Shown here piece after piece: positions 17,598-41,782 of a DNA stretch of 64,000 bases. The notes below the pieces were generated by a model. That model saw nothing but the letters and a program-made list of their open reading frames with translations. It was not told where the DNA came from and did not search any database. Source of the DNA: Opitutus sp. (GTDB lineage Bacteria; Verrucomicrobiota; Verrucomicrobiia; Opitutales; Opitutaceae); contig SIBG01000010.1 in the NCBI GenBank assembly GCA_009695305.1, positions 1,646-65,645 of the forward strand, written 5' to 3'. Position numbers and translations under genes: made by a program. How positions within the stretch are numbered: the first letter of the stretch is position 1; each line of letters begins with the position of its first letter.

Positions 17598-19676
17598 TCA
17601 TCTTTCGAACCCGATCTTCTTGCGCAGCGCCTTGAAGCGCGGTTCGTCGCGGAGAATGTCGTTCACCGGGTCGACCTTGAGAAACCAGCACGCGGCATCG
17701 ATATCTTCGTAGCATTTGTCCAGCCAGTCCAAGGCCTTCGCCTTGTCGCCCAGGCCAAGATAGACCATCACCCGCCATCCGGGGGCAACGAAGCGCAGTT
17801 TCTGTTTCTCCATTTCTTCAAAGCCGCGCAAAATTTCCTCGGCTTTGGCGCGGTCGCCCGCCACGGCATACGCGTAGCCGAGGATGGCGTCGCGAAAAGG
17901 ATGGTTATCCAGCGTCTTCGCTTTCTGCAACGCCGCGATGGCGGCGGCCGATTCCGTTTTGAACAGGGCGCAACTTCCCAACAGGTGATGGGCGGGTGCA
18001 AAGTTGCCGTCCAATTCCAGCACCTTGCGGGCTTGGGCGATCGCTTCGTCGTAGCGGCGCGCGTGGTAGAGCCACCAGCCAAGGTCGCACGCCATCAACG
18101 GCGAGAGCGGGTCCAGTGCGATCGCCTTCTTTTGGTTGGCGATCGACTCGTCAAACCGCGCGAGCATCGCCAGCACCCAGGCGTATTGATCATAGACGAG
18201 CGCGAGGTTGGGATTCAGCTCGATCGCACGCTTCATTTTTTCCTGCCCCGGCTCCCACTCGAAAAGAGCCACCTGCGCCAGCCCCAGCGAAAAATGCGCT
18301 TCGGCCAGATTGGGCGCGAGGGCGAGCGCTTGTTGCGCGAGTTCCTTTTGCTTCGTCCACGCCTCCTTGCCCGACATCACCCCCGGCTGGTAACCGAGGT
18401 TGTCGGCCAGGCCGCAATAGGCCAAGGCGTAGCCCGGATCCGCCTTGATCGCCTCGGTGAAGAATCGCTGGGCGTTGGTCCAGCCCTCGGCGGTGTTCTT
18501 CGCGAAATGGAAACGGCCGAGCAGGTAAAGGCGGTGGGCCTCCGGATTCTCGGTCGCTTTCTTTTCGAGCGATGGCTTGCCGGCGGAGAGCAACGTAATC
18601 TTCAGCGCCGCGGCCACGCGCTCGGCGACGTCGCGCTGCATCTTGAAGATGTCCTTGAACTCGGTGTCGTAGTCCTGCGACCACAGGTGCCGCTGGCTCG
18701 CGACGTCGATCAACTGCACCGTAATCCGCAACTGCTCGCCCGCCTTGCGCACGCTGCCCTCAAGCAGCGTCCCGACCCGAAGTTCCGCGCCGATTTCGGA
18801 GAAACTCTTGCCGGATTTCTTGGCGCGCTCGGACGAAGTGCGCGCGATGACTTCGAGTCCGCTGATTTTTGAGAGGCTGGACGTCAGCTCCTCGGTCAGG
18901 CCGCCCGCGAGGTATTCGTCCTTGGTGTCCGGGCTGAAATTATCGAGCGGCAGCACGGCGAGGCGGTGCGGATCGAGCGCGGTGGATTTGGCTGCTGCCA
19001 AATCCATGGGTCTTGAGGTTTGAGTTTTTGGTTCAACGGCGACCGACGCAGGCGCGGATTTACGGGTGGCGAAGAATCCAACGACGCCAATTACCACGCC
19101 GGCAAGCGCGGCCCACGCCCAGCCGGGCAAGCGTCGTTTGGACTGTAGGGCGGGGTCGCCGGACCCCGCCGCGGTTGACGACGCTGAAGACGGCGCGGTT
19201 CGGCGACCTCGCCCCACGACTGGCACGTCAGCCGGCGCAGCAAGCAGGCGTTTCACTTGCTCGACAAATTGCGTCGTCGGAAGCGCGCCGGGCAGGCGGG
19301 TCCACTGCACCCGCATGAATTCGGCGGGCACGGCCGCGCCGGACTCCGAGGTGTCGTCGATCACGACGGGCGCGAGAAACGGCACGCCTTCCAGCATCAG
19401 GTGCGTTTGCTCGATCGCCAGTTTCCATTCGAGCCGGAAGTAGCCTTTGCTCCGCGCCTGGGTGTTCGTCGAGATGATCGGCAGGAAGAGCGTGCAGTCG
19501 GCGATCTGCCGGCGGATTTTTTGGTCCCACGTGTCTCCGCCGCGCAATTCGTTCTGGTCGAACCACACCTCGACGCCATGGCTGCGCAGCGCCTCGGCGA
19601 TGCGCAGAGCGGCGGCGGTATCCTCGCGCGCGTAGCTGACGAAGACGGCGGTGGGTGATGTGGGAGATTCGGGCAC
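17598..19676 (-). CDS. TIR domain / single TM / TolB_N-like / TPR-repeat protein (paralog 1)
   Basis: GTG start. The TIR_2-like N-terminus reads [47 protein letters not shown]. It is followed by the hydrophobic helix [19 protein letters not shown], then [33 protein letters not shown], and then TPR-like repeats to the C-terminus. Confidence 0.8.
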
Positions 19677-19734
19677 GGATCGGAGTGAACTGTCAGCGAA
19701 CGTGGTGACGGCGTCGGGCGTAGACGAGGAGAAA

Positions 19735-19886
19735 TGCTCCGACCACGTCTACCGCCAGGCGATCACCGCTGCCGGCATGGGCTGCGCCGCCGCGATCGAC
19801 GCCGAGCGCTGGCTGGCGGAGCACCACGGGTAGTGGAGACGATGTCTGAGCTGTGAGAGAGCTGTGGGAGGGGCTTTATGCCCCGA
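19735..19886. repeat. copy B of the 152-bp direct repeat (orphan trxB C-terminal fragment + single REP)
   Basis: Encodes [31 protein letters not shown] plus a stop, identical in context to the trxB tail, followed by CTGTGGGAGGGGCTTTATGCCCCGA without an inverted partner. Confidence 0.9.
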
Positions 19887-19901
19887 TTTGAAGTCGCCAA
19901 A

Positions 19902-21194: not shown

Positions 21195-21302
21195 GATTGC
21201 CGATTTTCGATTTTCGATTGCCGATTGAGGCAGGACCAGGGCGATGAAGCGGAAAAGTGAGTCGCTCCGGTTGCTCAATTGGCAATCGCCCATCGGCAAT
21301 TC
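21195..21302. repeat. heptamer-array hairpin (AATCGAA family), two inverted arms
   Basis: Arm 1 (21195..21227) is GATTGCC GATTTTC GATTTTC GATTGCC GATTGAG. Arm 2 (21276..21302) is CAATTGG CAATCGC CCATCGG CAATTC, the inverse complement. It fills the gap between the TIR paralog 2 stop and the molybdoenzyme start. Confidence 0.75.
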
Positions 21303-23629
21303 TCAAAACAGCGGCGCGTTGTTCTTCGGGTCGTTGAGCAGCGCCTCGAACCGCGGGTCGCCGCGGAGCGGGGCATACAACGGGTCGTGTTTCATCTCAT
21401 AGATATTCAGCGAGCCCGGAATGCGCAGCAGCCGGGCAATTTCTCCGATGGCACGGTCTTTGTCACCGTTCCAGGCATCCACTTGGGCGCGCACCACGCT
21501 GATCCCTACGCCGACGAAAGCGTTGTGTGCCTCCGGCATATCCTCCGCTGCCCGGGCGATCCGGCGCAGCGCCTCGTCCTTGTTGCCCAGGATTGCCTCG
21601 ACGAGTGCGGCATCCCGCAGATGCTGGTTATTGTCCGGCTCGAGTTCAAGCCGCGCACGCAGCGTCGCGGGAATGGTTCCCAGTCGGGCACGCGCGCCGT
21701 CCAGATCGCCCTGGCTGCGGAAAACCGCCGCCGCGATCGTCGCCTTGGTGACATCGGGCAAACCTTCCGGGTCAGTGGGGGGATGGAGTCGATCCAGTCG
21801 GATAAACTCGGCGTAGTCGTTTCGTCGCAGCGCTTGGGTCATTCGCAGGCCGATGACCTCGGGCGATGACGCATCGCGGGCTTCCAGCCGAACGAGCAGT
21901 TCATCCGTGTCCCGGGTTGAACCGGTGGCGAGAAATGTCATCCGTGCAAGCTCCAACGCCCACTCCGGCCCGTCCGGCTGCAGCGCCACCAGGCGGCGTT
22001 GTTCCGCCAGCGCCTCGTCAAAGCGACGGACCATCCGGTAGGCCGACGCCAACACGCGGGCGGTCCCGGCATGGGTCGGGTCGAGCTGCGCCACTGTTCG
22101 CCGGGTGGCAATGTATTCGGGCCAACGACCTTGGATTAACTGGACAATGGCCAGCCGACTGCGTGTCTCGGCATCGTTCGGCTGGAGCCGCAGCAACTTC
22201 TCGAACTGCTCGCTCGCGCGAGCGTGATCCCTGAGGCCAAAATCAAAATAGACGCCGACCGCGCGGATCACCTCAGGCGATTCCGGCGCGAGCGCGCGCG
22301 CCCGGTCGATGGCGACCGTCGCTTTCGCCAGTCTGGCAGGTGTGGTGTCGACGTAGGCAACCCTCATTTCCACGTGCACGACCGCCAGTTCGCCCCACGC
22401 GATCGCAAACGCCGGATCGAGCGCTACGGCGGACTGGAGCAATGACTCCCGCTCTTGAAAAGATGCTTTCAATGATTTGTTGCTGCCTCTCGCCGCACGC
22501 GACTTGAGATAAAGATCGTAAGCGGCGGGATTCTCCGTCGGCCGCCGTGCGATCAGATTTTTTTCCTGCGGCGACAGCACGGTCTGGAGCGCACTGGCGA
22601 TGGCCTGGGCAATTTCGGACTGGATGGCGAAGACGTCGGTCAGTTTACGGGTGTAGGGCTGCGGCGACCAGATGTGGGTGTCGGTGCGGGCGTCGATCAG
22701 CTGGGCGCTCACCCGCACGGAGTCGGCCGCTCGCCGCACGCTGCATTCCAGAATATAGGTGACGCCGAGTTCGCGCGCGATTTCAGGCATTTTCTTGGTC
22801 GTATCGCGGTAGCCTATCACCGACTGGCGCGAGACCACGCGCAGCTCGCGGATGTTTTGCAGATTGGTCAGCACGTCCTCGTGGATGCCGTCGGCGAAGA
22901 ACGCGTTTCCCTTGTCTGGGCTGAGATTCGTGAAGGGCAGCACGGCAATGGACTTGTCGTTCAAAATCGGTGCTGCGGGCCCGGCTTTCGTTTCAGTCGC
23001 GGTCTTCGGCGGTGCGGTGAGTGGCTCGGATTTGCGGGTCGTAAAAAATGCGACGGCGCCAATTGCCGCAGCCGCGACTACGACCCACGTCCAGATCGGG
23101 ACGCCGCGGTTCGTCGGGGAGCGGGCTTTCGAGCCCGGGTCGTCGCGGCCCATGGGCTGGAAAGCCCGTGCCGCTTCGTTCCCCGGTGCGAGGAGGTGTT
23201 TGATTTGCTCGATGAATTGCGGCGTGGGCAGGCCACCGGGGAGGCGGGTCCACTGCACGCGCAGAAATTCCGCGGGCACGAGCGCACGCGATTCGGCGGT
23301 GTCGTCGATGGCCACTGGCACGAGGAACGGCACGCCCGCGGCCATGTCGTGCGTGCGCTCGACGGCGAGTTTCCACTCCCGGCGGAAATAACCTTCGCGG
23401 CGCGCCTGCGTGTGCGCGGAGATCACCGCGAGGAAAAGCGTGCAGCCGCGGATCTGGCCGCGAATCTTTTCGTCCCACGTGTCGCCCCCGTGCAGCTCAT
23501 TCTCGTCGAACCACACTTCGACCCCAAAGCCGCGCAACGCCTCCGCGATGCGGCGGGCGGCGTCGGTGTCCTCGCGCGCGTAACTGAGGAAGACGGCGCG
23601 GGCGTTGGGTGATGGGGGGAGTCGGACAC
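21303..23629 (-). CDS. TIR domain / single TM / TolB_N-like / TPR-repeat protein (paralog 2), 5' end frameshifted
   Basis: The intact ORF 21303..23537 starts at a TTG inside the TIR domain. The same frame continues upstream as ...PPSPNARAVFLSYAREDTDAARRIAEA with no start codon. A GTG at 23627..23629, homologous to the paralog 1 start, is one frame off across a G6 run (23614..23619). Confidence 0.7.
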
Positions 23630-23720
23630 GGGACGGACGAAGACCAATGGAGAACGTGGCCGCCGCGCCGGGTGGAGACGAGGAGAAATACGGAGCAGGT
23701 TTTAACCGCTAGTCCTCGCT

Positions 23721-30910: not shown

Positions 30911-31309
30911 ATGCAAATATCACTCTCCCATCCGCGCCGGCCTGCCAGCCATTACCTGCCAGGCGCCACCTTCGCCGAGCCCCTGACCAGCGCTCCTGGC
31001 GAGGCCACGGCCCTCCGCGCCCACCACGCGCCAGACAGCGAAAAACCCGCGAGCGAATGGAACACCTGCGACATCGTCTGCCGCAGCGACACCATCGAGG
31101 TCACGGTCAATGGCGTCCGCCAAAACAAAATTACCAGATGCGCGCCGGCCGCGGGCCGGGTCGGTTTCCAACTCGAGGGCACGCCCTTCGAACTGCGGCA
31201 CGTGCGGATCGAGCCGCTGCGCCAGGGGGCGTGGGCCCGAACGCGCCACTCAGCGCGCCGTTCACGGCACCGTGGCCAGACGCCCGTCGTCGAACCGCCC
31301 CGGCTCTGA
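30911..31309 (+). pseudogene. DUF1080 gene, C-terminal fragment
   Basis: ...KPASEWNTCDIVCRSDTIEVTVNGVRQNK...GRVGFQLEGTPFELRHVRIEPL is the typical DUF1080 C-terminal half. No signal peptide or N-terminal half of its own. Confidence 0.6.
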
Positions 31310-32692
31310 AAATTCTGCGAGCCTCATCCCGCGCCGCACTTCCGGTGCGCGCATGAAGTTCCGCCACACGAACCCGCTCCGCAGGTTCTCCGCCATCACG
31401 AGCGTGATGCCCACATTGATTCCAATCACATCCGGCGAAGCCCAGCCCGTCTGCGGATTGAACGCATCCGAAAACCCGTAACGCCCCCAGGCCCCCGCGC
31501 CGCCGACCTCGCGCATGCGTTTCAGCGACGTCAGGCACTCGCCCGGCGCAAACGGCAGCGACCCGCCCGGCGCGCTCGGCACCAGCGTCCCATCGCTCGC
31601 GTCGTCCGCCCGCGCGACCGGCGTGCCCCACGCCACGTAGCCGCGCGCGCTGTCCGACGCCGTGAGCCCCCACAGGTCGCGGGACCAAAACGGAAACCGC
31701 CCGCCCTGCGCCGCGCTCCACTCGCGCTGCGCGAGCGTCGCCTCGACCGAGTTTTGCCAGTAATCCGCATACCGGTCGCGCCGCCCGCGAAAATCAAACC
31801 ACGCATGCGCATACTGGTGCGTGAAGAGCGGCCCGCACTGGATAAACGCCCGCCCCTCTGTGCTCACCCACGGCTCGCGCCGCCAGGCATGCCACGTCTC
31901 CGCCGGCAACGCCCCGGCCGTCGCGCCGATGCCCAATAGATAAAGTCCCATCATCTCCGCGTAACTGTCCCAGCGACTCGCAATAAATCCGCCCTCGGGC
32001 CGCCACCCGTGCGAGAGGGTGCGCCCCCCGTCGAGCGCCCACCGCCAGTCGATGCGCGCGTAGATTCGGTTGACCAGCTCCGTCACCTCCGCGTCGCGCA
32101 GATATTCCCGCGCGAGGAGGGCGCCTTGGAGCAACAGCGCGGTGTCGATCGTCGAGGCCTCGCATTGCCAAACCCGTTTTCCGTTCACCGCGTCGACGAA
32201 ATGATAAAGCCAGCCATGTTCCTGCGCGTGTTCCTCCGCGACAAATCGCAGCGTCTGCACCACGCGCCGCCGGGCCTCGCCCGCGCGCAACCACCCGCGC
32301 TCCTCGGCAATGCACCACGCCGTCAGCGCAAACCCCGTCGCCGCCACGCTCGCCGGCGCCTGACTAGACGCCCCGTGGTTCGGTGCGCGGTCGCGCGTGA
32401 GACCGGTGAGCGGGTCCGAGTGCTCCGTGAAAAACCGCACCGCCCGCCGCTCCACGTCGTCGAGCAGGGCCGAATCTTCCGGCGAAAGTGCCCCGTGGCG
32501 CGCCCAGCCCCCGAGCGTTGGCCCGGCCGTCGCTCTCCCGTCGAGTGCCACCTCCTTCGCCCGTGCCCCCGGCGAAAACATCACCGCCCCCAGCAGCGCC
32601 GCCACGCCGCTCAAGAGGCGAAGGAGCCCCCGACTCTCTCGCAGAGAGTCCAACGCGCCCTGGGGGTTGGGGTTGTTAAGTGTCCGCTTCAT
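31262..32692 (-). CDS. putative glucoamylase / beta-1,2-glucanase-like protein (PF10091, GH144-like)
   Basis: MKRTL...LLGAVMFSPGARA signal peptide. Alpha/alpha-barrel-like blocks: SVAATGFALTA, TIDTALLLQGAL, SYAEMMGLYLLG, GPLFTHQYAHAWFD and GINVGITLVMAEN. Confidence 0.55.
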   Translation of the reverse strand: MKRTLNNPNPQGALDSLRESRGLLRLLSGVAALLGAVMFSPGARAKEVALDGRATAGPTLGGWARHGALSPEDSALLDDVERRAVRFFTEHSDPLTGLTRDRAPNHGASSQAPASVAATGFALTAWCIAEERGWLRAGEARRRVVQTLRFVAEEHAQEHGWLYHFVDAVNGKRVWQCEASTIDTALLLQGALLAREYLRDAEVTELVNRIYARIDWRWALDGGRTLSHGWRPEGGFIASRWDSYAEMMGLYLLGIGATAGALPAETWHAWRREPWVSTEGRAFIQCGPLFTHQYAHAWFDFRGRRDRYADYWQNSVEATLAQREWSAAQGGRFPFWSRDLWGLTASDSARGYVAWGTPVARADDASDGTLVPSAPGGSLPFAPGECLTSLKRMREVGGAGAWGRYGFSDAFNPQTGWASPDVIGINVGITLVMAENLRSGFVWRNFMRAPEVRRGMRLAEFSEPGRFDDGRLATVP

Positions 32693-32980
32693 GCGAGCCA
32701 CCGGTGTCTCTGTGGTATCGGCTCAGGCCCGCCGGGCGAGGAGAAATTTTTCGAATCGGCATTTTTTCTCCCGCCGGCCCCTGGCCCGCCGGCCGCCTGG
32801 CCCGACCGCCCCACTCCGCCGGAAAATTCCCCGGCCGGAATTTTTCTGCCTCGATCGCCGAACCCAGCGCCTCCGCCTTCGACATTCCGAGCTTCCCCGC
32901 CACCGCCGTCTCCGCTTTGCTCCCGCCACCGCACCCCGCGCAGTTACCTCCTCCGTCCACCCACGTCTTTCCCCGCGCCC

Positions 32981-34438
32981 ATGTCCCATCACGCTCCACG
33001 ACTCGAGGATTACTTCCTCACCCGCCGGGATTTTCTCCATCGTTGCGGCATTGGTTTTGGCGCACTCGGTTTCGCCGCCCTCGCCAGCCCGCCGCTCTTC
33101 GCGGAAACCCCCAGCGCCGGCGTCCGCGTCAACTTCGACCATCCCCTCGCCCCGCGCCCCGCGCACTTCCCCGCCAAGGCGAAACGCGTCATCCACATTT
33201 TCGCCAACGGCGGTCCGTCCCAAGTCGATACTTTCGACCCCAAGCCCGCCCTCACCAAATGGCACGGCCAGGCCATCCCCCTCGAGCTCAAGACCGAGCG
33301 CAAGACCGGCGCCGCCTTGCGTTCGCCCTTCGCGTTCAAGCCCTACGGCCAGAGCGGCATCGAGGTCAGCGACCTCTTCCCGCACGTCGCCGAACACATC
33401 GACGACCTCGCCGTCATCCGCTCGATGCACGCCGACGTCCCGAACCATGAGCCGTCGCTCATGCTGATGAACTGCGGCGACGCCCGCCTCCCGCGCCCCG
33501 CCCTCGGCTCGTGGGTCACCTACGGCCTCGGTTCGGAAAATCAAAATCTTCCCGGCTTCATCGCGATGTGCCCCGGCGGTTATCCGATCCAGGAGTCGCA
33601 AAACTGGCAGAGTGCCTTTCTCCCCGGCATTTATCAGGGCAACTACATCAACACCGCGTTCACCGACATCGACCGGCTCATCGAGCACATCCGCAACCCC
33701 GCCGCCACGCCCGCGGAGCAGCGCGCCCAACTCGACCTCCTGCAAAAACTCAACGTCCGCCACGCCGCGCAACGCGCGCCCGACGCCCAACTCGAGGCGC
33801 GCATCCAATCCTACGAGCTCGCCTATCGCTTGCAACTCGAGGCCACCGACGCCTTCACCATCAGCCGCGAGCCCGCCGCCATGCGCGCCCTCTACGGCGA
33901 CACCACGCAGGGCCGCCAGCTCCTCACCGCCCGCCGCCTGCTCGAAAAGGGCGTCCGCTTCGTCCAAGTCTGGCACGGCGAGGGCCAGCCCTGGGACAGC
34001 CACGATGACATCGAAGTAAACCACCGCCGCCTCGCCCGCGAGAGCGACCAGGCCATCGGGGCGCTCCTCCAGGATCTTAAACAACGCGGGATGCTCGAGG
34101 ACACCCTCGTGATTTGGGGCGGCGAGTTCGGTCGCACGCCCGTCGTCGAACTCCCCACCCCCGGGGCCAACGCCGGCAAGGTCAATGGCCGCGACCACAA
34201 TCACCACGGCTTCACGATGTGGCTGGCCGGCGGCGGCGTGAAGGGCGGCTACGTCCACGGTGCGACGGATGAGTTCGGCTTCAAAGCCGTGGAAAAGCCC
34301 GTCCACGTCCACGACCTCCACGCGACCATCCTCGCCCTGCTCGGCTTCGACCACGAGAAACTCACCTACCGCCATGCCGGCCGCGATTTCCGCCTCACCG
34401 ATGTGCACGGCAAAGTTGTCCGGGAGCTCATTGCGTGA
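32981..34438 (+). CDS. DUF1501 domain protein (sulfatase-like, Tat signal)
   Basis: The ATG at 32981 gives MSHHAPRLEDYFLTRRDFLHRCGIGFGALG. Also KRVIHIFANGGPSQVDTFDPKP, and GEFGRTP...GRDHN. Confidence 0.85.
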   Translation: MSHHAPRLEDYFLTRRDFLHRCGIGFGALGFAALASPPLFAETPSAGVRVNFDHPLAPRPAHFPAKAKRVIHIFANGGPSQVDTFDPKPALTKWHGQAIPLELKTERKTGAALRSPFAFKPYGQSGIEVSDLFPHVAEHIDDLAVIRSMHADVPNHEPSLMLMNCGDARLPRPALGSWVTYGLGSENQNLPGFIAMCPGGYPIQESQNWQSAFLPGIYQGNYINTAFTDIDRLIEHIRNPAATPAEQRAQLDLLQKLNVRHAAQRAPDAQLEARIQSYELAYRLQLEATDAFTISREPAAMRALYGDTTQGRQLLTARRLLEKGVRFVQVWHGEGQPWDSHDDIEVNHRRLARESDQAIGALLQDLKQRGMLEDTLVIWGGEFGRTPVVELPTPGANAGKVNGRDHNHHGFTMWLAGGGVKGGYVHGATDEFGFKAVEKPVHVHDLHATILALLGFDHEKLTYRHAGRDFRLTDVHGKVVRELIA

Positions 34439-37400
34439 AGCCACTCCGCCGTCATCGCGAGGAGCGCAGTGGCGAGGCGATCCAGCTCTCCACCCCCGGC
34501 GCGCCAACGCCCCGTCCCTTTCATCTCGTCATCCTTGGCCTCCTGCTCGGCGCCACCACGGCCTCCTTCGCCGCGACCGCCGCCGATCTCCCGCCCGACC
34601 AGGTCGAATTCTTCGAAACCAAAATCCGCCCCATTTTCGTCGAGTCCTGCTACAAATGTCACAGCGAACGGGAAGGAAAATCCAAGGGCAGCCTCACCCT
34701 TGATTCCCGCGACGCGCTCCGGCGGGGCGGCGCGACCGGCCCGGCCTTCGTCGCGGGCGATCCGGACCAAAGCCTCCTCATTCAAGCGGTCCGCTACACC
34801 GATGAAGATCTCCAAATGCCGCCGGAGAAAGACGGCGCCGGTGGCAAGCTCTCCGCGGAAAAAATCGCCGCGCTCGAGCAGTGGATAAAAATGGGCGCGC
34901 CCGACCCGCGCACCGCCACGCCCACGCCCGCCACCCTCGACATGACCCGCGCCCGCCAACACTGGGCCTTTCAACCCATCGCCCAACCCGCGGCGCCCTC
35001 CGTCCAAAATCAAGCGTGGGTTCAGTCCCCGCTCGACGCGTTCGTCCTCGCGAAACTCGAAAAGCAAAAGCTCGCCCCCGCTCCCGCCGCCGACCCGCGC
35101 ACGCTCCTCCGCCGCGTCACTTACGATCTCACGGGCCTCCCGCCGACCCCCGCCGAAGTCGACGCCTTTCTCCGCGACCATTCGCCTGAGGCCTACGCCA
35201 CCGTCGTCGACCGCCTCCTCGCCTCACCGCGCTACGGCGAACGCTGGGGCCGCTACTGGCTCGATGTCGCCCGCTACGCCGACACCCAGGGCTATCTCGT
35301 CGGCAATGCCGAGCGCCGCTTCGCCTACGCCCACACCTACCGCGACTACGTCATCCGCGCCTTCAACACCGACGAGCCCTACGACCAGTTTCTGCTCGAA
35401 CAACTCGCCGCCGATCAGCTCCCGCTGGGCGACGACAAATCTGCCCTCGCCGCGATGGGCTTCCTCACCCTGGGCCGCCGTTTCCTCGGCAATCAAAACG
35501 ACATCATCGACGACCGCATCGACGTCGTCACCCGCGGCCTCATGGGTCTCACCGTCGCCTGCGCGCGCTGCCACGATCACAAATTCGATCCCATTCCCAC
35601 ACGCGACTACTACGCGCTCCACGGCGTTTTTGCCTCCACCGAGGAGCCCGCCGTCAAACCCCTCCTCGGCAAACTCGATGAGTCCGCTCCCGCCTACCGT
35701 GAATTTCTCCGGAAGAAAACCGACGCCGAGGCGCGGGTAAAAGTCCGGGAGCGCGAGGAGGTCGAAAAATTCCTCACCGAGATCCGCAGCCAGACCGGCG
35801 ACTATCTCCTCGGCGCCCACGACGCCGCGCGCCTGCCGCCCACCGAAAAACTCGACCTCTTCGCGGGCGCCAGAAAACTAAATGTCGAGATGCTCAAACG
35901 CTGGCAGCCGTGGCTCGAGGCCCGCGCCCAGGATCCCACCGCTAATTCCGTCCTCGCCCCGTGGTTCGCCCTCGCCGCGCTCCCCGCCAAGGAATTCGCC
36001 GAGGCCGCCCGCGCCCTGCTCGCCGCACCCATGGCAGAAATCCTGGGCGCTGCGCCGCCCCGCGAAAAACGCCCACGATCCGCGACGCCGCCAACTTCCT
36101 CCCCCGACGGCCCGGCCGCCGCGCTCGCCGCGCCACCGGAACTTCTCGCCCACCTTCGGCTACCGGCCGACGCGCCACCCGCCTCGCCCTTCAACGCCGT
36201 CATCCTCGCCGCCCTCACGGAAAAGCCGCTCTCCTCGCTGAAAGACGCCGCCGCCGTCTACAACCGCGTCTTCGCCGACATCGAAAAATCCTGGCAAACC
36301 CTGCGGACCGGCCAGATCGAAATCGAATATCCCGTCACCTTTTCTGACCCCGACCACGAAGCCATCCGCCAAATTCTCTACGCCGGCGGCGCGCCCGCCA
36401 ACCTCGGCTACGACGCCACGGCCAAAATAATCAAACGCACGATCGACGACAAAACCTCCGGCCTGCGCCGCGAGGTCGAGGCGCTCAACTGGACCGAGCC
36501 CGGCGCGCCCCTTCGCGCCATGTCCCTCGTCGACAGAGCCAAACCCCACAACTCCCCCATTTTTCTCCGCGGTAATCCCTCCAACTCAGGCCCCGAGGCC
36601 CCCCGCCGCTTCCTCGAGATCCTCGGTGGCGATAAGCTGCCCGCCGCCACCACCACGAGCGGCCGCCTCGAACTCGCCCGCGCCGTCGCCAGCCCCGCCA
36701 ATCCGCTGACCGCGCGCGTCTTCGTGAATCGCGTCTGGGGCTGGCACTTCGGCCAGGCCCTCGTGCGCACGCCCAGCGATTTCGGCGTCCGCACCGAGGC
36801 CCCGGTCCACCGCGACCTCCTCGACTACCTCAGCGCCACCTTCGTCGCGGGCGGCTGGTCGGTGAAAAAACTCCAGCGCGCCATTGTGCTCTCGACCACT
36901 TATCGCCAGTCGGGTGACGAAACTCCCGCCGCCGCCGCGATCGATCCCGACAACCAACTCCTCCACCGCTTCAACCGCCGCCGCCTCGAATTCGAATCCC
37001 TCCGCGACACCCTGCTCGCCGTCTCCGGCCAGCTCAACCTCACGCCCGGCGGCCTCCCGGACGATCTCACCACCGAGCCCTTCACCCGGCGTCGCACCGT
37101 TTACGGTTTCATCGACCGTCAGAATCTCCCGGGCATGTTCCGCACCTTCGATTTTCCAAACCCCGACACCAGCAGCGCACAGCGGTTCGCCACGACGGTT
37201 CCTCAGCAGGCGCTGTTCATGATGAACAGCCCCTTCGCCCAAGAACAGGCCCGCCACCTCGTCCAGCGCCCCGAACTCCAATCCGCCGCCTCCGACCCCG
37301 AAAAAATCCGCGCCCTCTACGCCACCCTCTACCAACGCGCCCCCGCCGCCGACGAACTCGCCCTTGCCCAGGATTTTCTCGCCACGCAACAGGCCTCGCC

Positions 37401-38034
37401 GCACGCCACCCCGCCCTCGCCGGACCGCGTCCCCGGCTGGCACTATGGCTACGGCGCCTTTGACTCCGCCACCCGCCGCGTTCGCGATTTCCAACCGATG
37501 ACCGCGCGCAAGGACGGCAAGGACGCGCGCATCAGCCCCTCTCCCTCGTCTCCCGATTCCGCGTTCGACAACCTCTTCCTCTCACCCACCGGCGGCCATC
37601 CCGGAAAAACGCCGAACCACGCGAGCATCCGCCGCTGGATCGCCCCCGCCGCTGGCACCGTCCGCCTTGAAGCGACCCTCGGTCACGCCAACGAAAAAGG
37701 CGACGGCATCCACGCCCGGATCATCTCCAGCCGGACTGGCTCCCTCGGCGAGTGGACGGTCCACAACGCCAAACAGGAAACCAACCTCGCCGACCAAAAA
37801 GTCACCGCCGGCGAAGCCCTCGACTTCCTGGTGGAGAGCGGCGCCACCACGAACTCGGACACCTACACGTGGTCGCCGAAAATCCACTTTACCGCTGACG
37901 CCGACTCCAGCGCGCGCACGTGGGACGCGAAACGAGATTTCAATCTCACCGAAAAAATCCCCGTCCCGCTCACGCCGTGGGAAGCGCTCGCCCAAGTCCT
38001 CCTCCTCGCCAACGAACTGGCGTTCGTGGACTGA
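34435..38034 (+). CDS. PSCyt1 (Planctomycete cytochrome c) / DUF1549 / DUF1553 protein
   Basis: CYKCHS heme motif in FFETKIRPIFVESCYKCHS. A DUF1549 block (PLDAFVLAKLEKQKLAPAP..LLRRVTYDLTGLPPTPAEV). ACARCHDHKFDP. A DUF1553 C-terminal region. There is a GTGA overlap with the DUF1501 gene. Confidence 0.85.
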   Translation: MKPLRRHREERSGEAIQLSTPGAPTPRPFHLVILGLLLGATTASFAATAADLPPDQVEFFETKIRPIFVESCYKCHSEREGKSKGSLTLDSRDALRRGGATGPAFVAGDPDQSLLIQAVRYTDEDLQMPPEKDGAGGKLSAEKIAALEQWIKMGAPDPRTATPTPATLDMTRARQHWAFQPIAQPAAPSVQNQAWVQSPLDAFVLAKLEKQKLAPAPAADPRTLLRRVTYDLTGLPPTPAEVDAFLRDHSPEAYATVVDRLLASPRYGERWGRYWLDVARYADTQGYLVGNAERRFAYAHTYRDYVIRAFNTDEPYDQFLLEQLAADQLPLGDDKSALAAMGFLTLGRRFLGNQNDIIDDRIDVVTRGLMGLTVACARCHDHKFDPIPTRDYYALHGVFASTEEPAVKPLLGKLDESAPAYREFLRKKTDAEARVKVREREEVEKFLTEIRSQTGDYLLGAHDAARLPPTEKLDLFAGARKLNVEMLKRWQPWLEARAQDPTANSVLAPWFALAALPAKEFAEAARALLAAPMAEILGAAPPREKRPRSATPPTSSPDGPAAALAAPPELLAHLRLPADAPPASPFNAVILAALTEKPLSSLKDAAAVYNRVFADIEKSWQTLRTGQIEIEYPVTFSDPDHEAIRQILYAGGAPANLGYDATAKIIKRTIDDKTSGLRREVEALNWTEPGAPLRAMSLVDRAKPHNSPIFLRGNPSNSGPEAPRRFLEILGGDKLPAATTTSGRLELARAVASPANPLTARVFVNRVWGWHFGQALVRTPSDFGVRTEAPVHRDLLDYLSATFVAGGWSVKKLQRAIVLSTTYRQSGDETPAAAAIDPDNQLLHRFNRRRLEFESLRDTLLAVSGQLNLTPGGLPDDLTTEPFTRRRTVYGFIDRQNLPGMFRTFDFPNPDTSSAQRFATTVPQQALFMMNSPFAQEQARHLVQRPELQSAASDPEKIRALYATLYQRAPAADELALAQDFLATQQASPHATPPSPDRVPGWHYGYGAFDSATRRVRDFQPMTARKDGKDARISPSPSSPDSAFDNLFLSPTGGHPGKTPNHASIRRWIAPAAGTVRLEATLGHANEKGDGIHARIISSRTGSLGEWTVHNAKQETNLADQKVTAGEALDFLVESGATTNSDTYTWSPKIHFTADADSSARTWDAKRDFNLTEKIPVPLTPWEALAQVLLLANELAFVD
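34451..34487. repeat. half copy of the GTCATCGCGAG element inside the 5' end of the PSCyt ORF
   Basis: GTCATCGCGAGGAGCGCAGTGGCGAGGCGATCCAGCT, translated as RRHREERSGEAIQL. Confidence 0.6.
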
Positions 38035-38377
38035 GCGATCGCTTCATCCCCGGCAATATCAACGTCACATTCCAAACCATCGGTCATGGCCAGCCGTTCC
38101 ACGGCGAAGCCATCGAGCGCGTTCTCCAAGCTCCGGACCCCGGGCCCGGCCGAGCACCAGCCGCGCTTCCGCTGTTTCCCGACCAGCCAGCGGGCAACTG
38201 GAAATCGATCTTCCCTTTTTTGATCAAGCCCCCTTCATCCGCATCGAGTTTCCAACTGGCGTCACTCTCAGCGGTGGCGGCGGTGCTCATTCCAAAATCA
38301 ATCTGAACTCCGATGCGAACGCTTGATCAGCTCTTGGTGGCCGGAATCATCGCACCGCTTCGGCGCGGCTCGCCCGC

Positions 38378-40099
38378 ATGACGACTCGCAAGGGACTCTT
38401 TCTCCACCGGGCGGCCTGGCTGCTGCCGGCGCTCGCCCTGGTGACGGTCGGCTTGGGCATCTCGGCCTGGCGGGAACGCGGACTTTCCCTCGGTGATTCC
38501 GTCTATCGCTCCGTGGCTTTGTTCGATCTTGGCAACAGCATGTATATCGGCGGCCCTGGGACCGATTGGCGATTCCAAGCCGGCCGCTGGACGGGACTGG
38601 CTGTCGTGTTCGGCACGGGCTTTCTGGCACTGGGTGCGGTGTTGCGGGAGCGAATGGCGCTGGCGGTGGCGCGAAAGATGCGACAGGAGGTCATCGTCAT
38701 CGGCGGCACTGAAATCGCCACCAGGGCTTATGAGGCGGCCCGCACCGCCGGGAAGAGCGTCATCTGGGTGGGCGCCCCGACCCTCGGCGTGGGCTCGATC
38801 CGTTCGCTGGCCTTCCCCTGGCCCCCGGGCGACCGGGCCACGATCGTGCGCGAGTATGCCGGCAACGCGGCGCACGTGCTGGTGGCCGGGGATGACGACG
38901 CCGCCACGCTCGTTCTAGCGCGCGCGGCGCGCACGACCGCGCCCAGCGCATCGATCACGATCATGATGCGCGACGCCCGCCTGGCCGAGGAAGCCGCCGC
39001 CACGCTCAATCAGGCCCGCACGCGAGTATTCTCCGTCGCAGCCATCTCCGCCCGGGCGCTGAACTTGAAGCATCCGCCCTTCCTGATCGCTCAGAACCTG
39101 GGCCAACCGCGAATTCATGCGTTGATCATTGGCTTTGGCCAATCCGGCCAAGCCATGGCCCGCGACTTGATGGTAAACTGCCGCACCACGTTTCTCGAAT
39201 TGCCCGCCATCACCGTGATCGATCCCCACGCCAAGGCGCTGGAAGGGGTGATGCGGGTGCGCGCGCCAGAGATCGATGCGTGCGCCCATTTCACCTTTAT
39301 CGAGGGGAAAATTTGCAGCGAGGCCATGGCGCCGGACGTCGCCACCATGGGCGGCGCGATTGCCCGGGGTGGCCCGTTGACCGCTTGCTACGTCTGCCTG
39401 ACGACCGACACGGAAGTTCTTGGCGCCGCCGCGATGCTTCAATCCCTGTTGCGGGCAGTCGACCTTGGACGGCCTCCGTTCTTCGTGCGGTTGGGCGACG
39501 CCAGCATCGTGGCCGGAACGGTCGAGGAAAAGCACGGCCTATACGCCCTGCACGCCTTCGGCGATCTCGGGTCGGTCCTCGCCGCCAGCGAGTTTCTGTC
39601 CGCCACGCCCGATGGCGCCGCCCGGGCCTTCAGCGACGCCTATCGCGCTTCCCTGCCGGCCGCGAAACGCGATGATCCGACCGATCGTTCCGCGCGCTCG
39701 TGGGACGAACTCGACGAAACATTTCGTGAGGTCAACCGGGCGGTCGTCGCGCATATCCCCGCCAAGATGGCCAGCGCCGGGATCGACCCCAGCCTCTGGG
39801 TCGGGGTCAGTCTCCTGCCCCGCCCATCCCAGGACCGGCAACTGTTCGCCACCGAAGCCGAATGCGAGCGACTGGCCGAACTGGAACATGAACGTTGGGC
39901 CGCCCAGCGGCGCATGCAGGGCTGGCGCTGGACGGCCGCGAAGGCCAAAGACGAAATCCGACGCCTGCATCCGTTTTTGGTTCCGTATCGAGACTTGAGT
40001 GACGAGGTCAAGGAGTTCAACCGGGTTTATGTCCGCGAAACTCAACTGGCCTGCTGGGGCACGGCTCGCGCCACGGATCGAGACCACGGCCAACATTAG
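38378..40099 (+). CDS. membrane protein with two Rossmann (TrkA-N-like) modules and a C-terminal RyR domain
   Basis: Two N-terminal hydrophobic helices flank GDSVYRSVALFDLGNSMY. Then VIVIGGTEIA and LIIGFGQSGQAMARDL (GxGxxG). The C-terminal LAELEHERWAAQRRMQGWRW...RRLHPFLVPYRDLSDEVKEFNR matches the RyR-domain pattern. Codon usage is atypical. Confidence 0.7.
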   Translation: MTTRKGLFLHRAAWLLPALALVTVGLGISAWRERGLSLGDSVYRSVALFDLGNSMYIGGPGTDWRFQAGRWTGLAVVFGTGFLALGAVLRERMALAVARKMRQEVIVIGGTEIATRAYEAARTAGKSVIWVGAPTLGVGSIRSLAFPWPPGDRATIVREYAGNAAHVLVAGDDDAATLVLARAARTTAPSASITIMMRDARLAEEAAATLNQARTRVFSVAAISARALNLKHPPFLIAQNLGQPRIHALIIGFGQSGQAMARDLMVNCRTTFLELPAITVIDPHAKALEGVMRVRAPEIDACAHFTFIEGKICSEAMAPDVATMGGAIARGGPLTACYVCLTTDTEVLGAAAMLQSLLRAVDLGRPPFFVRLGDASIVAGTVEEKHGLYALHAFGDLGSVLAASEFLSATPDGAARAFSDAYRASLPAAKRDDPTDRSARSWDELDETFREVNRAVVAHIPAKMASAGIDPSLWVGVSLLPRPSQDRQLFATEAECERLAELEHERWAAQRRMQGWRWTAAKAKDEIRRLHPFLVPYRDLSDEVKEFNRVYVRETQLACWGTARATDRDHGQH

Positions 40100-40444
40100 G
40101 CCAACGACTCGTGAAATCTTGACTCCTCCGTGCAGGCAGCCTGCTTGCCGGCGCTCCGAGGGTCCGCCAGCGGACGGCCGACGAAATTTAAAAACATCCT
40201 AGCCGTTGGTATTAATCACCGCGAAAGCTCCCGACTCGGACCTCGCGGTTTTTACGGCCCCTCGATTAGGCCCCACCGCCAGCCACCGCGACCCCAGCCA
40301 CGAGTCCCGGCAAATCTGCCAGGGTGTTTTGATCTCCAGGTGTGCTCCAAGCCGGCGAACGCTGGTTGACGCGTTCTCCCGTCGAAGTTCAGTTTGCTCA
40401 TTGCGTTCGTCCGTCACCCGGCGCGCGCGAGTTTTCCACTCACC

Positions 40445-41782
40445 ATGAAAGAAATTCTGACCGAGGCCGCGTCCCGGGCGATTCACTACCTGCAGGGTCT
40501 CGAGTCACGCGGCGTCGCCCCCACCCCGGCCGCCGTGGCCGGGCTGCGGGCGTTCGATGCGCCGTTGCCCGCGAAGTCGACTAACCCGGCCGACACCCTG
40601 CGCTTGCTTGATGAAGTCGGCTCGACCGCGATGGCCGGCCCGAGATTTTTTGGCTTTGTCATCGGCGGCTCGCTGCCCGTCACCCTCGCCGCCAACTGGC
40701 TCGCCGGTGCCTGGGATCAGAACAGCGCTTACTATCGCGCCACCCCGAGCACGGCCTTTATCGAACAAGTCGCGCTGCGCTGGCTGCTCGACGTCCTGCA
40801 ACTTCCGCCCACCTCAGGCGGCGCGTTTGTCACCGGTGCGACCGTCGCGAATCTCTGCGCGCTCGCCGCCGCCCGGCACGCCGTGCTCGATCGCGCGGGT
40901 TGGAACGTCGAAGCGCAGGGCCTGTTCGGTGCTCCGCCCATCACCGTCATCGTCGGCGCCGAGGCGCATCCCTCGGTGACGAAGTCGCTCGGCCTGCTCG
41001 GTCTCGGCCGCCGCCGCGTGGTCCCGGTGCCCGTCGACGAGCAGGGCCGGATGCGCGCCGACCAGTTGCCGGCGATTTCCGGCCCGACGATCGTCTGCGT
41101 GCAAGCCGGCAACGTGAACACGGGCGCTTTCGATCCGATCGGCGAAATCTGCCGCCGCGCCCACGCCGCCGGCGCGTGAGTGCATGTGGACGGTGCCTTC
41201 GGCTTGTGGGCCGCCACCACCCCAGCCCGCGCGCACCTCGCCGCGGGGACGGCCGAAGCCGATTCGTGGGCGACCGACGCCCACAAATGGCTGAACGTGC
41301 CCTACGATAGCGGGCTCGCTTTCGTGCGCGAGGTGCACGTGCTGCAAGCCGCGATGGCGATCACCGCGGAGTATCTGCCCACGGCCAGCGAGTATCGCAA
41401 CCCGGCCGATTTCACGCCCGAGCTTTCCCGGCGCGCCCGCGGCGTCGAGGTCTGGGCCGCCCTGCATTCGCTTGGCCGCGAGGGCCTCGCCGCGATGATC
41501 GAACGAAACTGCACGCAGGCACAGCGCTTCGCCGAAAAACTATCCGCCGCGGGCTTCGAAATCCTGAACGAGGTCGCGCTCAATCAAGTGCTCGTGTCGT
41601 TCGGCGACGCGGCGCGGACCAACCGCGTCATCTCCGCCGTGCAGCAAGAAGGCACCTGCTGGTGCGGCGTCACGATCTGGCAGGGAAAAACCGCCATGCG
41701 GATCAGCGTCTCGTCCTGGGCCACGACCGACGCTGACGTTGATCGCAGCGCCGCCGCGATCATCGCGGTGGCGCTGCGGTAG
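40445..41782 (+). pseudogene. PLP-dependent (group II) decarboxylase interrupted by in-frame TGA
   Basis: ORFs 40394..41179 and 41180..41782 are in the same frame. The junction reads ...AHAAGA-TGA-VHVDGAFGLWAA at 41177..41179. The PLP-lysine motif DAHKWLNVPYDSG lies downstream. Confidence 0.8.

What the first reader, a model, noticed from the sequence alone, without database searches (positions are those of the whole stretch)
38035..40444. Orphan membrane / double-Rossmann / RyR-domain protein flanked by ~340-bp non-coding arms
The 573-aa ORF (38378..40099) has two N-terminal hydrophobic helices around GDSVYRSVALFDLGNSMY. This segment is positioned like a K+-channel pore helix and filter (D.(L/V)Y(F/R)SV.T..TVGYGD), but the TVGYGD filter is replaced. 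Two TrkA-N/RCK-like Rossmann modules follow; the first glycine motif is degenerate and the second is an intact GFGQSGQ. The C-terminal region reads WDELDETFREVNRAVVAHIPAKM followed by LAELEHERWAAQRRMQGWRW...LHPFLVPYRDLSDEVKEFNR, the signature of the ryanodine-receptor RyR repeat. Bacterial RyR-domain proteins exist in databases, but I know of no assigned function. Here the gene stands alone between 343-bp and 345-bp stretches with no convincing ORF. It uses CTG/CGG/CGA/GAT/TAT codons unlike the backbone, and it is followed by a decarboxylase pseudogene. That is the appearance of an acquired islet. It is a candidate ligand-gated membrane signalling or conflict module.
Basis: partly seen in the sequence, partly recalled or inferred. 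Interest (0 to 1): 0.65.

Follow-up and report, generated by a model that had tools for sequence, protein, structure and literature searches.

The report
Solitary RyR-domain channel-like membrane protein
The gene encodes a potassium-channel-like membrane protein carrying a ryanodine-receptor-type nucleotide sensor; its relatives in other bacteria usually sit beside a TIR signal-making enzyme, so the family may be a bacterial channel gated by TIR-made nucleotides, of which this window holds a transferred, partnerless copy.

Summary
ORF 38378..40099 (573 aa) is real and lies between 343-bp and 345-bp gaps. It has two TM helices around an MthK-like pore helix that lacks the TVGYG filter. Two RCK/Rossmann domains follow (best fold match GsuK), then a C-terminal RyR domain (Pfam 42.7 bits).

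The host is an Opitutaceae (Verrucomicrobiota). All close homologues (50-68% identity) that carry a name are from Caulobacterales or other Alphaproteobacteria. The nearest Opitutaceae relative lacks the gene, and its codon usage is at the extreme of the window. Horizontal acquisition is therefore likely.

The main new result concerns the homologues. In 22 of 41 well-flanked loci, a membrane-anchored TIR-domain protein lies within 3.5 kb, in several gene arrangements and in subfamilies down to 27% identity. Two 2026 preprints show that phage RyR domains bind TIR-made cyclic ADP-ribose isomers.

My best reading is a TIR-signal-gated, RCK-type channel family that the literature I could search does not describe. 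The window copy has no adjacent TIR gene. It carries four unique substitutions in the sensor module, including D548N at a ligand-contact position. Two TIR-TM-TPR genes lie 15-21 kb upstream. Ligand, gating and physiological role are inferred, not shown.

The parts
38378..40099 (+). Complete gene for the 573-aa membrane / tandem-RCK / RyR-domain protein
   Evidence: ORF. Homologues E 1e-223. AF2 model pLDDT 85, pTM 0.78. Foldseek top hits are GsuK 4gx0/4gx5.
38411..38467 (+). TM helix 1 (about aa 12-30)
   Evidence: Hydropathy peak. AF2 helix 7-33. Aligns to MthK TM1.
38483..38566 (+). Pore-helix-like segment and loop (aa 36-63, LSLGDSVYRSVALFDLGNSMYIGGPGTD), in the position of a K+ channel pore helix and selectivity filter but with no TVGYG
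   Evidence: Profile alignment to MthK 21-228, E 3e-11. AF2 pLDDT is below 50 at aa 50-58. The loop is variable across the superfamily.
38567..38677 (+). TM helix 2 / inner helix (aa 64-100), with the nearly invariant R70 in the motif GRW
   Evidence: AF2 helix 64-100. Hydropathy peak at aa 71-89. Conservation.
38684..39097 (+). RCK/Rossmann module 1 (aa 103-240). The glycine motif is degenerate; only G109 is invariant.
   Evidence: TrkA_N 21.1 bits at aa 106-203. Relatives score 40-78 bits. GsuK and MthK sequence hits.
39107..39592 (+). RCK/Rossmann module 2 (aa 244-405), with intact GFGQSGQ and an acidic D282 at the end of beta-2 (ITVIDP). This is a plausible dinucleotide/ADP site.
   Evidence: G252, G254, G257 and D282 are invariant in 28 relatives. 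G252 is invariant across the superfamily. Foldseek matches to the GsuK and TrkA gating rings.
39605..40063 (+). C-terminal nucleotide-sensor module (aa 410-562). It consists of the conserved W442..R450..N453..H459..K463 segment plus the RyR repeat (Pfam aa 496-555 = nt 39863-40042). Putative ligand residues are H504, W507 and H531. N548 (codon 40019-40021) stands where relatives have Asp.
   Evidence: Pfam RyR 42.7 bits. PDB RyR1/RyR3 R12 and B. thetaiotaomicron 3NRT hits. Foldseek 6uhi over 164 columns. Phage RyR-domain proteins in BFVD. Residue roles from PMC13232231 and 10.64898/2026.06.04.730250. Unique substitutions.
38035..38377 (.). Upstream non-coding gap, 343 bp, GC 0.61. Nothing recognisable was found in it.
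   Evidence: No Rfam match. No promoter-like site. No similarity to donor-type loci. No flanking repeats.
40100..40293 (.). Downstream non-coding stretch, 194 bp, with no counterpart in the closest Opitutaceae relative. It marks the right end of the lineage-specific segment.
   Evidence: DNA homology with L054/L055 starts at window 40294.
40294..40444 (+). Native upstream region of the decarboxylase gene. It is not part of the acquired segment.
   Evidence: 84% identical to L054 1576 onward, upstream of an intact decarboxylase.
40445..41782 (+). PLP-dependent decarboxylase gene broken by one in-frame TGA at 41177-41179 (replacing a conserved Trp). It is a host gene, not part of the module.
   Evidence: Pfam Pyridoxal_deC on both halves. 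Orthologues are intact at 448 aa and read AGAWVHVDG. The same split appears in independent assemblies.
17598..19676 (-). TIR_2 - TM - TPR protein (692 aa). It is a possible host-side signal generator; the link to the RyR gene is only hypothetical.
   Evidence: Pfam TIR_2 74.8 bits plus TPRs. TM at about aa 185-204. Same topology as TIR partners of RyR homologues, e.g. L057.
21303..23708 (-). Second TIR_2 - TM - TPR protein, a paralogue 41% identical to the first. Start codon uncertain (23537 to 23708).
   Evidence: Pfam TIR_2 42.4 bits plus TPRs. Paralogy and TM helix.

Best explanation
The gene encodes a member of a large, uncharacterised family of channel-like membrane proteins.

Architecture: an MthK/GsuK-type two-helix pore domain without the K+ selectivity filter; a cytoplasmic gating apparatus of two RCK domains, the second with an intact dinucleotide-type site; and a C-terminal RyR (Repeat12-type) adenine-nucleotide-binding module.

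Native setting (Caulobacterales and other Proteobacteria): the gene is genetically coupled to a membrane-anchored TIR-domain protein.

Proposed mechanism: the TIR enzyme converts NAD+ into an ADP-ribose-derived signal. The RyR module binds it, possibly together with NAD+/ADP sensing at RCK2. The gating ring then opens a poorly selective pore, and the resulting ion flux or depolarisation serves as the output, either defence or envelope-stress signalling.

The window copy: an Opitutaceae bacterium acquired the gene horizontally, as a segment of at most about 2.26 kb between a PSD1 gene and a decarboxylase gene, without its cognate TIR. It is intact. Its sensor pocket has been altered at four positions (N436D, Q451E, D455A, D548N). 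It may have been re-wired to the host's own TIR-TM-TPR proteins, or it may respond to ordinary adenine nucleotides.

Shown: architecture, homology, TIR linkage in relatives, foreign origin.
Inferred: ligand identity, pore opening, ion flux, physiological role, any link to the host TIR genes.
For: Architecture:
- Pfam RyR above threshold.
- Family profile hits MthK 21-228 at E 3e-11 and GsuK at 5.7e-12.
- Foldseek top hits are GsuK with ADP or NAD bound, MthK, the TrkA ring and RyR R12.
- AF2 pLDDT 85.

Conservation: it is strongest in the C-terminal module. W442, H459, K463, E503, H504, R506 and G515 are invariant in relatives 24-61% identical to the window protein.

TIR linkage:
- A TIR protein lies within about 2.5 kb of the RyR gene in 19 of 44 species-level genome loci. 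Three arrangements occur: convergent, co-directional, or separated by a GDSL lipase.
- 22 of 41 unique loci with at least 3.5 kb on both sides have a TIR within 3.5 kb. TIR hit density is 9.85 per 100 kb near the gene and 1.35 per 100 kb farther out.
- The link persists in subfamilies 27-36% identical, where Pfam-confirmed TIR_2 partners are fused to TPR or WD40 or have a Sel1-repeat gene beside them.
- Each partner checked for TM helices (five loci) is TIR-linker-TM-ectodomain.
- A Glu is conserved in the TIR partners (KEL). Its identity as the catalytic Glu rests on my own knowledge of TIR motifs.

RyR-domain biochemistry: phage RyR domains bind or cleave 2'cADPR and 3'cADPR through His, Trp, His and Asp residues that match H504, W507, H531 and position 548.

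Foreign origin:
- The window is Opitutaceae. All genome hits are alphaproteobacterial.
- The relative L054 lacks the gene.
- Codon usage ranks 35-36 of 36 for TAT, CAT, CAA and CTG+TTG.

Intactness: only 4 deviations at 136 conserved columns, all in the sensor module (hypergeometric P about 0.007, post hoc) and each unique or nearly so among 120 relatives.
Against: - No TIR gene adjoins the gene in the window.
- About 46% of well-flanked homologue loci also lack a nearby TIR.
- The filter loop is variable across the family and modelled with low confidence, so ion conduction is unproven.
- Neighbours of the Caulobacterales pairs are housekeeping genes in conserved synteny (PDT, GT2, PMT, HMGL-like).
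- The TIR domain is more conserved (66-89% identity) than the channel (50-61%). That pattern fits physiological signalling better than an arms-race defence system.
- PADLOC has no model for the protein.
- D548N removes a residue used for ligand contact or catalysis in the phage proteins.
- The TIR counts rest on a custom HMM, checked by Pfam in only a handful of cases.
Confidence: 0.55

Rival explanations
1. It is an ordinary metabolic-state-gated cation channel. Like GsuK, KtrA/TrkA or the RyR1 R12 site, it senses common adenine nucleotides (ATP, ADP, NAD+/NADH) and adjusts ion flux for homeostasis. On this view the TIR neighbours in relatives are a lineage-specific add-on that is irrelevant here.
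For: GsuK (ADP/NAD-bound) and TrkA are the best fold matches. RCK2 has an intact GxGxxG plus Asp. The RyR R12 domain is described as an ATP/ADP and drug site. The gene stands alone here and in about half of the homologue loci.
Against: No K+ filter. No K+-uptake or ion-homeostasis genes in any neighbourhood examined. The TIR enrichment spans divergent subfamilies and several gene orders, which is hard to explain without a functional link.
Confidence: 0.2
2. It is not a channel but a membrane-anchored regulator. The RyR module would act as a glycosidase or sponge, as in phage RyDEP and RyR-Tad, removing TIR-made cADPR isomers and so terminating or buffering TIR signalling at the membrane.
For: The positions of the RyDEP catalytic dyad (His75/Asp117) are conserved in the family as H504 and D548 (119 of 120 relatives). 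Phage RyR proteins are the only RyR domains with a demonstrated activity. The filter loop is not conserved.
Against: The same residues are conserved in non-catalytic sponges and in animal RyRs, so they do not indicate catalysis. A full MthK/GsuK-type pore plus tandem-RCK scaffold is conserved down to 24% identity to the window protein, which is unnecessary for a sponge. The window protein has Asn at 548, which would inactivate a RyDEP-type enzyme.
Confidence: 0.1
3. It is a functionless relic: a transferred gene cut off from its partner and drifting towards loss, like the decarboxylase pseudogene next to it.
For: No cognate TIR is present. Four unique substitutions lie in the sensor module, including a nearly invariant Asp. 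The neighbouring gene carries a nonsense mutation. No recognisable promoter was found.
Against: The reading frame is intact over 573 codons and aligns end to end with relatives. It has only 4 deviations at 136 conserved columns, against a family median of 2 and a maximum of 9. None of the four lies in the pore or RCK parts. Two substitutions add a negative charge and two remove one, which looks like remodelling rather than random decay (my inference). The sequence is identical in several samples.
Confidence: 0.12

Closest known systems
GsuK and MthK (RCK-gated 2TM K+ channels; PDB 4gx0/4gx5, 3rbz/6oly)
   Same: Two TM helices with a pore helix. Cytoplasmic RCK domains, tandem as in GsuK. A nucleotide site in an RCK Rossmann fold. 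Detected both by sequence profile (E 3e-11 to 6e-12) and by fold.
   Different: No TVGYG selectivity filter; the loop is variable across the family. An extra C-terminal RyR module is present. The first RCK glycine motif is degenerate. No conductance data exist.
Phage RyR-domain proteins RyDEP and RyR-Tad (PMC13232231; 10.64898/2026.06.04.730250)
   Same: Pfam PF02026 domain. The His-x-x-Trp, His and Asp ligand positions match by motif and spacing (H504/W507, H531, position 548). Foldseek finds phage RyR-domain proteins over about 145-150 columns.
   Different: Those are small soluble phage proteins that counter Thoeris. This is a 573-aa cellular membrane protein with pore and RCK domains, absent from viral contigs. 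The window protein has Asn where the catalytic or ligand Asp sits.
Thoeris anti-phage systems, especially type X (TIR plus 'ion channel' effector ThsK; 10.64898/2025.12.03.692087)
   Same: Two-gene logic of a TIR enzyme plus a membrane or ion-channel protein, as seen in homologue loci. The type X signal molecule is still unknown.
   Different: The type X TIRs listed there are short ThsB-type proteins of Vibrio and Bacillus. The partners here are membrane-anchored TIR_2 proteins with P/A-rich, TPR or WD40 parts. RyR and TrkA are not mentioned in that paper's text or held tables, so I could not tell whether ThsK is related. The Caulobacterales pairs sit among housekeeping genes, not in defence islands. 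The window has no adjacent TIR.
Repeat12 (R12) domain of animal ryanodine receptors (PDB 6uhb, 9l90, 5c30)
   Same: Sequence hits of E 1e-24 to 1e-33 with the family profile. A shared nucleotide and dantrolene pocket is described. In both cases the domain is attached to an ion channel.
   Different: Animal RyRs are 5000-aa six-TM Ca2+ release channels with tandem repeats in a peripheral position. Here one canonical repeat plus a divergent N-terminal half hangs on a 2TM RCK channel.

Membership tests
RyR domain (Pfam PF02026) | Profile score above the curated gathering threshold | tested here: met
   42.7 bits against a cut-off of 27.4, aa 496-555. PDB RyR1 R12 hits at E 5e-18.
RyR domain (Pfam PF02026) | Ligand-contact residues His-x-x-Trp and the second His | tested here: met
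   H504, W507 and H531 are present and invariant or nearly so.
RyR domain (Pfam PF02026) | Conserved Asp contacting the terminal ribose (RyDEP D117, RyR-Tad D171) | tested here: not met
   Position 548 is Asn in the window protein and Asp in 119 of 120 close relatives and in at least 90% of the superfamily. The correspondence rests on motif spacing, not on a structural superposition.
RCK-gated 2TM K+ channels (MthK/GsuK type) | Two TM helices flanking a pore helix, homologous to channel pore domains | tested here: met
   Family profile vs MthK residues 21-228, E 3e-11. Foldseek GsuK full-length alignments.
RCK-gated 2TM K+ channels (MthK/GsuK type) | K+ selectivity filter T-V-G-Y-G | tested here: not met
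   The aligned segment reads FDLGNSMY in the window protein and is variable in the family.
RCK-gated 2TM K+ channels (MthK/GsuK type) | RCK / TrkA_N domain(s) after the inner helix | tested here: met
   The window protein scores 21.1 bits, just under the 23.8 cut-off. Relatives score 40-78 bits. GsuK RCK sequence hits at E 6e-12. Foldseek matches to the GsuK and TrkA rings.
RCK-gated 2TM K+ channels (MthK/GsuK type) | Tetrameric assembly with a gating ring; ion conduction | not testable with these tools
   Only monomer prediction was available.
Thoeris-type TIR signalling system | TIR-domain gene adjacent to the effector gene | tested here: not met
   None next to the window gene. The nearest TIR genes are 15-21 kb away. 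The feature is met in 22 of 41 well-flanked homologue loci.
Thoeris-type TIR signalling system | Effector domain that binds the TIR-made signal | not testable with these tools
   Inferred only from phage RyR-domain biochemistry.
Thoeris-type TIR signalling system | Location in defence islands or match to known defence models | tested here: not met
   No PADLOC hit for the protein. The TIR partner gives only generic TIR hits. Caulobacterales neighbours are housekeeping genes. A few distant loci carry relaxase or recombinase genes.
Thoeris-type TIR signalling system | Protection against phage | not testable with these tools
   This needs an experiment.
Phage RyDEP / RyR-Tad anti-Thoeris proteins | Small soluble phage-encoded protein with the His/Asp dyad | tested here: not met
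   This is a cellular 573-aa membrane protein. No relatives were found in viral contigs. The Asp is replaced by Asn.

The most novel reading that the evidence does not exclude
Bacteria possess a two-gene pathway. A membrane-anchored TIR receptor makes an ADP-ribose-derived second messenger, and that messenger directly gates an RCK-type ion channel through a RyR (Repeat12) domain. This would be the prokaryotic forerunner of the long-debated cADPR-ryanodine-receptor axis of animals, and it would point to the R12 domain as the place where such ligands act. The Opitutaceae copy would then be a channel captured by a new host and re-tuned (N436D, Q451E, D455A, D548N) to that host's own TIR-TM-TPR signal generators.
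Probability: 0.3. Interest if true: 0.9.

Novelty: new variant of a known kind. Interest (0 to 1): 0.72.

Why it matters
Whether cyclic ADP-ribose acts directly on ryanodine receptors, and where, has been argued for decades. In 2026 phage RyR domains were shown to bind TIR-made cADPR isomers.

A cellular protein family that joins that same domain to an ion-channel scaffold, and whose genes repeatedly sit beside TIR genes, gives a simple bacterial system for testing 'TIR product gates a RyR-domain channel' directly. It would also add a new effector or sensor class to TIR signalling.

The conserved housekeeping context in Caulobacterales raises the possibility that TIR signalling has a physiological role in bacteria, not only an antiviral one.

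For the window itself, the case shows how a sensor-effector can be transferred between phyla without its signal generator.

Tried and rejected
- Rfam scan of the gene and both arms at E<=1: nothing.
- Promoter and terminator consensus scan: no promoter-like site; terminator-like sites at chance level.
- Direct and inverted repeats around the segment: only short chance matches, with no target-site duplication or IS ends.
- blastn and tblastx of the arms against donor-type loci: no similarity except the native decarboxylase leader.
- NCBIfam and PADLOC on the protein: no hits.
- Viral contigs: no relatives. Plasmids: only four distant partial hits at 24-26% identity. A phage or plasmid vehicle is therefore not supported.
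- TIR fusions among long relatives (730-1300 aa): none. They carry 1-4 RyR repeats instead.
- TIR-less Caulobacterales contexts: no alternative recurrent partner was evident from neighbour clustering and reading the ORF translations.
- tblastn with the Caulobacterales TIR against the window was negative. That proved misleading, because an HMM found two TIR-TPR genes.
It was repeated with A3.
- I could not establish what kind of channel the Thoeris type X effector ThsK is.
- L001 and L002 are 100% identical to the window, so no polymorphism-based selection test was possible.
- A selenocysteine or recoding reading of the decarboxylase TGA was rejected. The codon replaces a conserved Trp, one base away (TGG to TGA).
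Full report
**1. What is there**

The ORF at 38378..40099 (+) is real: 573 codons with an ATG start. Its codon-position GC pattern is that of a coding region, with GC3 0.78. Full-length homologues reach E 1e-223.

The gene sits between the stop of a 1199-aa PSCyt1/PSCyt2/PSD1 protein (34435..38034) and the start of a PLP-dependent decarboxylase (40445). This leaves gaps of 343 and 345 bp.

The decarboxylase is split by a single in-frame TGA at 41177-41179. In intact 448-aa orthologues that position is a conserved Trp (AGAWVHVDGAFG). The same split is called in independent assemblies, so it is not a read error.

**2. Domain anatomy**

- Pfam gives a significant RyR domain: 42.7 bits against a 27.4 cut-off, aa 496-555.
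- TrkA_N is just sub-threshold: 21.1 bits against 23.8, aa 106-203.
- Relatives at 27-35% identity score 40-78 bits for TrkA_N and carry one to four RyR repeats.
- An AlphaFold2 model built on 28 sequences has mean pLDDT 85 and pTM 0.78.
- Foldseek against the PDB puts the multi-ligand-gated K+ channel GsuK (apo, ADP-bound, NAD-bound) first, followed by MthK, the TrkA and KtrA gating rings, and a RyR Repeat12 chimera.
- A profile of 46 diverse family members hits MthK residues 21-228 (TM1, pore helix, filter, TM2, RCK) at E 3e-11 and GsuK at 6e-12.

This is a K+-channel-type pore domain whose selectivity filter is replaced.

The replacement loop is variable across the family and modelled with low confidence.

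The second Rossmann module has an invariant GxGxxG and an Asp at the end of beta-2. In the first module only one Gly is conserved.

Across the relatives in alignment A2, which are 24-61% identical to the window protein, conservation is strongest in the last 130 residues: W442, H459, K463, E503, H504, R506 and G515 are invariant, and W507, H531 and D548 are nearly so.

**3. Whose gene is it**

The window is from an Opitutaceae-type verrucomicrobium. Decarboxylase orthologues at 80-91% identity are named Opitutaceae, Opitutae or Opitutus. The upstream DUF1501 and PSD1 pair is typical of that group (the group association is from my own knowledge).

In contrast, none of the names attached to the 120 best homologues of the RyR protein (53-66% identity) points to Verrucomicrobiota. 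The 43 full-length relatives found in 185,579 species genomes are all from Caulobacteraceae, Caulobacterales, Phenylobacterium, Hyphomonadaceae or unnamed Proteobacteria.

The closest available relative of the window (L054; decarboxylase 91% identical, same downstream synteny) has a response-regulator/guanylate-cyclase gene upstream of the decarboxylase instead of the RyR gene. DNA homology to the window begins only at 40294. The lineage-specific segment is therefore at most 38035-40293.

GC and GC3 are ordinary. Synonymous codon choice is at the edge of the window's distribution:
- rank 36 of 36 for TAT;
- rank 35 of 36 for CAT, CAA and CTG+TTG;
- third lowest for CTC;
- overall z = 7.3.

A class of other low-CTC genes also exists in the window, so this evidence is supportive rather than decisive.

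I found no repeats, mobile-element genes, RNA families or promoter-like sites in the arms. The family is absent from viral contigs and nearly absent from plasmids.

**4. The neighbourhood result**

In homologue loci a TIR-domain gene keeps turning up.

In Caulobacterales the partner is a protein of about 320-430 aa. It has an N-terminal TIR domain (66-89% identical between species), a Pro/Ala-rich linker, one TM helix, and a Pro/Ala-rich tail ending in VPF or VPY.

It occurs in three arrangements:
- convergent and abutting the RyR gene;
- co-directional and immediately upstream;
- downstream behind a GDSL lipase.

It is spread over most branches of a neighbour-joining tree of the family.

With an HMM of these and other TIR_2 domains, the counts are as follows:
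- 47 of 110 unique loci have a TIR within 3.5 kb.
- 22 of 41 loci with at least 3.5 kb on both sides have one.
- TIR hit density is 9.85 per 100 kb near the gene and 1.35 per 100 kb farther out.

The link holds in subfamilies only 27-36% identical to the window protein. There Pfam confirms TIR_2 partners of other builds: TIR-TPR (L057), TIR-WD40 (L073), plain TIR-TM proteins (L058, L095, L104), and a TIR with a Sel1-repeat gene beside it (L044). Each partner checked for TM helices (five loci) has an N-terminal TIR followed by at least one TM helix.

A Glu is invariant in the aligned TIR partners (KEL). Taking it as the catalytic Glu rests on my own knowledge of TIR motifs.

**5. What RyR domains do**

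Two 2026 preprints show that phage-encoded RyR (PF02026) domains bind TIR-made 2'cADPR, 3'cADPR and cADPR with nanomolar affinity. One of them, RyDEP, hydrolyses these molecules.

The residues used are a His-x-x-Trp pair, a second His, and an Asp. These are conserved in animal RyR Repeat12, which itself binds adenine nucleotides and dantrolene.

By motif and spacing they correspond to H504/W507, H531 and position 548 here.

A December 2025 preprint lists 29 putative Thoeris types, including a validated type X with an 'ion channel' effector and an unknown signal. Neither RyR nor TrkA is mentioned in its text or in the held tables.

No paper in the searchable library reports a cellular TIR/RyR-domain pairing.

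**6. Best explanation**

The family is most simply read as an RCK-type channel whose gating apparatus carries a RyR-domain sensor for a TIR-made ADP-ribose derivative. The TIR protein would act as a membrane receptor. This is a genomic inference joined to biochemistry done on phage homologues. Ligand, gating and conductance are untested.

Whether the pair is a defence system or a physiological signalling pathway is open. The diverse TIR-repeat partners and occasional mobile-element genes in distant loci look conflict-like. The Caulobacterales pairs sit in conserved housekeeping synteny, with a TIR domain more conserved than the channel, which looks physiological.

**7. The window copy**

It has no adjacent TIR.

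It is intact and deviates at only 4 of 136 columns that are at least 95% conserved among 120 relatives. All four deviations lie in the sensor module (post hoc hypergeometric P about 0.007). Each is unique or nearly unique to this protein: N436D, Q451E, D455A, D548N. TIR-less Caulobacterales members keep the consensus at these positions.

Two changes add a negative charge and two remove one. I read this as pocket remodelling rather than decay, but that is an inference.

The window also encodes two paralogous TIR_2-TM-TPR proteins (17598..19676 and 21303..23708, minus strand), 15-21 kb upstream. They have the same topology as the partners of distant family members. A functional link between them and the RyR gene is possible but unsupported by adjacency.

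**8. Rivals**

- A TIR-independent adenine-nucleotide-gated cation channel (0.2).
- A membrane-anchored cADPR hydrolase or sponge (0.1).
- A drifting relic (0.12).

Evidence for and against each is given in the Rival explanations section.

**9. Verdict**

The gene belongs to an annotated but uncharacterised family. The TIR association, combined with the new RyR-domain biochemistry, makes that family a candidate new variant of TIR signalling with a channel-type receptor, and a testable bacterial counterpart of the cADPR-RyR idea.

Noticed in passing
window 17598-23708 (minus strand): Two paralogous TIR_2 - TM helix - TPR proteins (692 aa and about 744-801 aa, 41% identical) flank a molybdopterin-oxidoreductase-domain gene (19902-21299). 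All three use the low-CTC codon class. tblastn with the Caulobacterales TIR missed them; only an HMM found them.
   Followed up: partly
window 41177-41179: The PLP-dependent decarboxylase (40445-41782) carries a single TGA in place of a conserved Trp codon. Orthologues at 80-91% identity are intact, and the split is present in several independent assemblies. This looks like a very recent pseudogene.
   Followed up: yes
window 31262-32701 (minus strand): A glycoamylase-family gene (PF10091) has the most deviant synonymous codon usage in the window (z = 24, far beyond the RyR gene). It may be another acquired gene.
   Followed up: no
window 13169-14320 and 61887-62714 (minus strand): An M19 membrane dipeptidase gene and a 275-aa ORF with no Pfam hit also show strongly atypical codon usage (z = 11.9 and 9.2).
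   Followed up: no
L003 9740-10930, L005 11156-12352, L017 8792-9922 and about 20 other loci: The Caulobacterales TIR partner has a TIR domain 66-89% identical between species whose RyR proteins are only 50-61% identical. It also has a long Pro/Ala-rich linker, one TM helix, and a tail ending in VPF or VPY. Such conservation is unusual for a defence sensor.
   Followed up: partly
L004-L008, L013, L016, L017, L019, L025: A secreted GDSL-type lipase gene accompanies the TIR/RyR pair in 10 loci, either between the two genes or just outside them. It may be a third component.
   Followed up: no
L049 and L050 (RyR gene region, about 10000-11700): In two long-read MAGs the RyR homologue is split into two ORFs or truncated. 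These are either pseudogenes or frameshift errors of the assemblies.
   Followed up: no
L091 8303-10237; L046 12569-14362: Distant family members lie near a MobA/VirD2 relaxase-DUF3363 gene and a large serine recombinase gene. Some members of the wider family may therefore ride on mobile elements.
   Followed up: no
L054 249-1436: In the closest Opitutaceae relative, the position upstream of the intact decarboxylase is occupied by a response-regulator/guanylate-cyclase gene. This junction is a variable spot in the lineage.
   Followed up: partly
L009 7531-8157 (also L011, L038): In one TIR-less Caulobacterales context, a conserved protein of about 205-225 aa and unknown function lies immediately upstream of the RyR gene on the same strand.
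   Followed up: no
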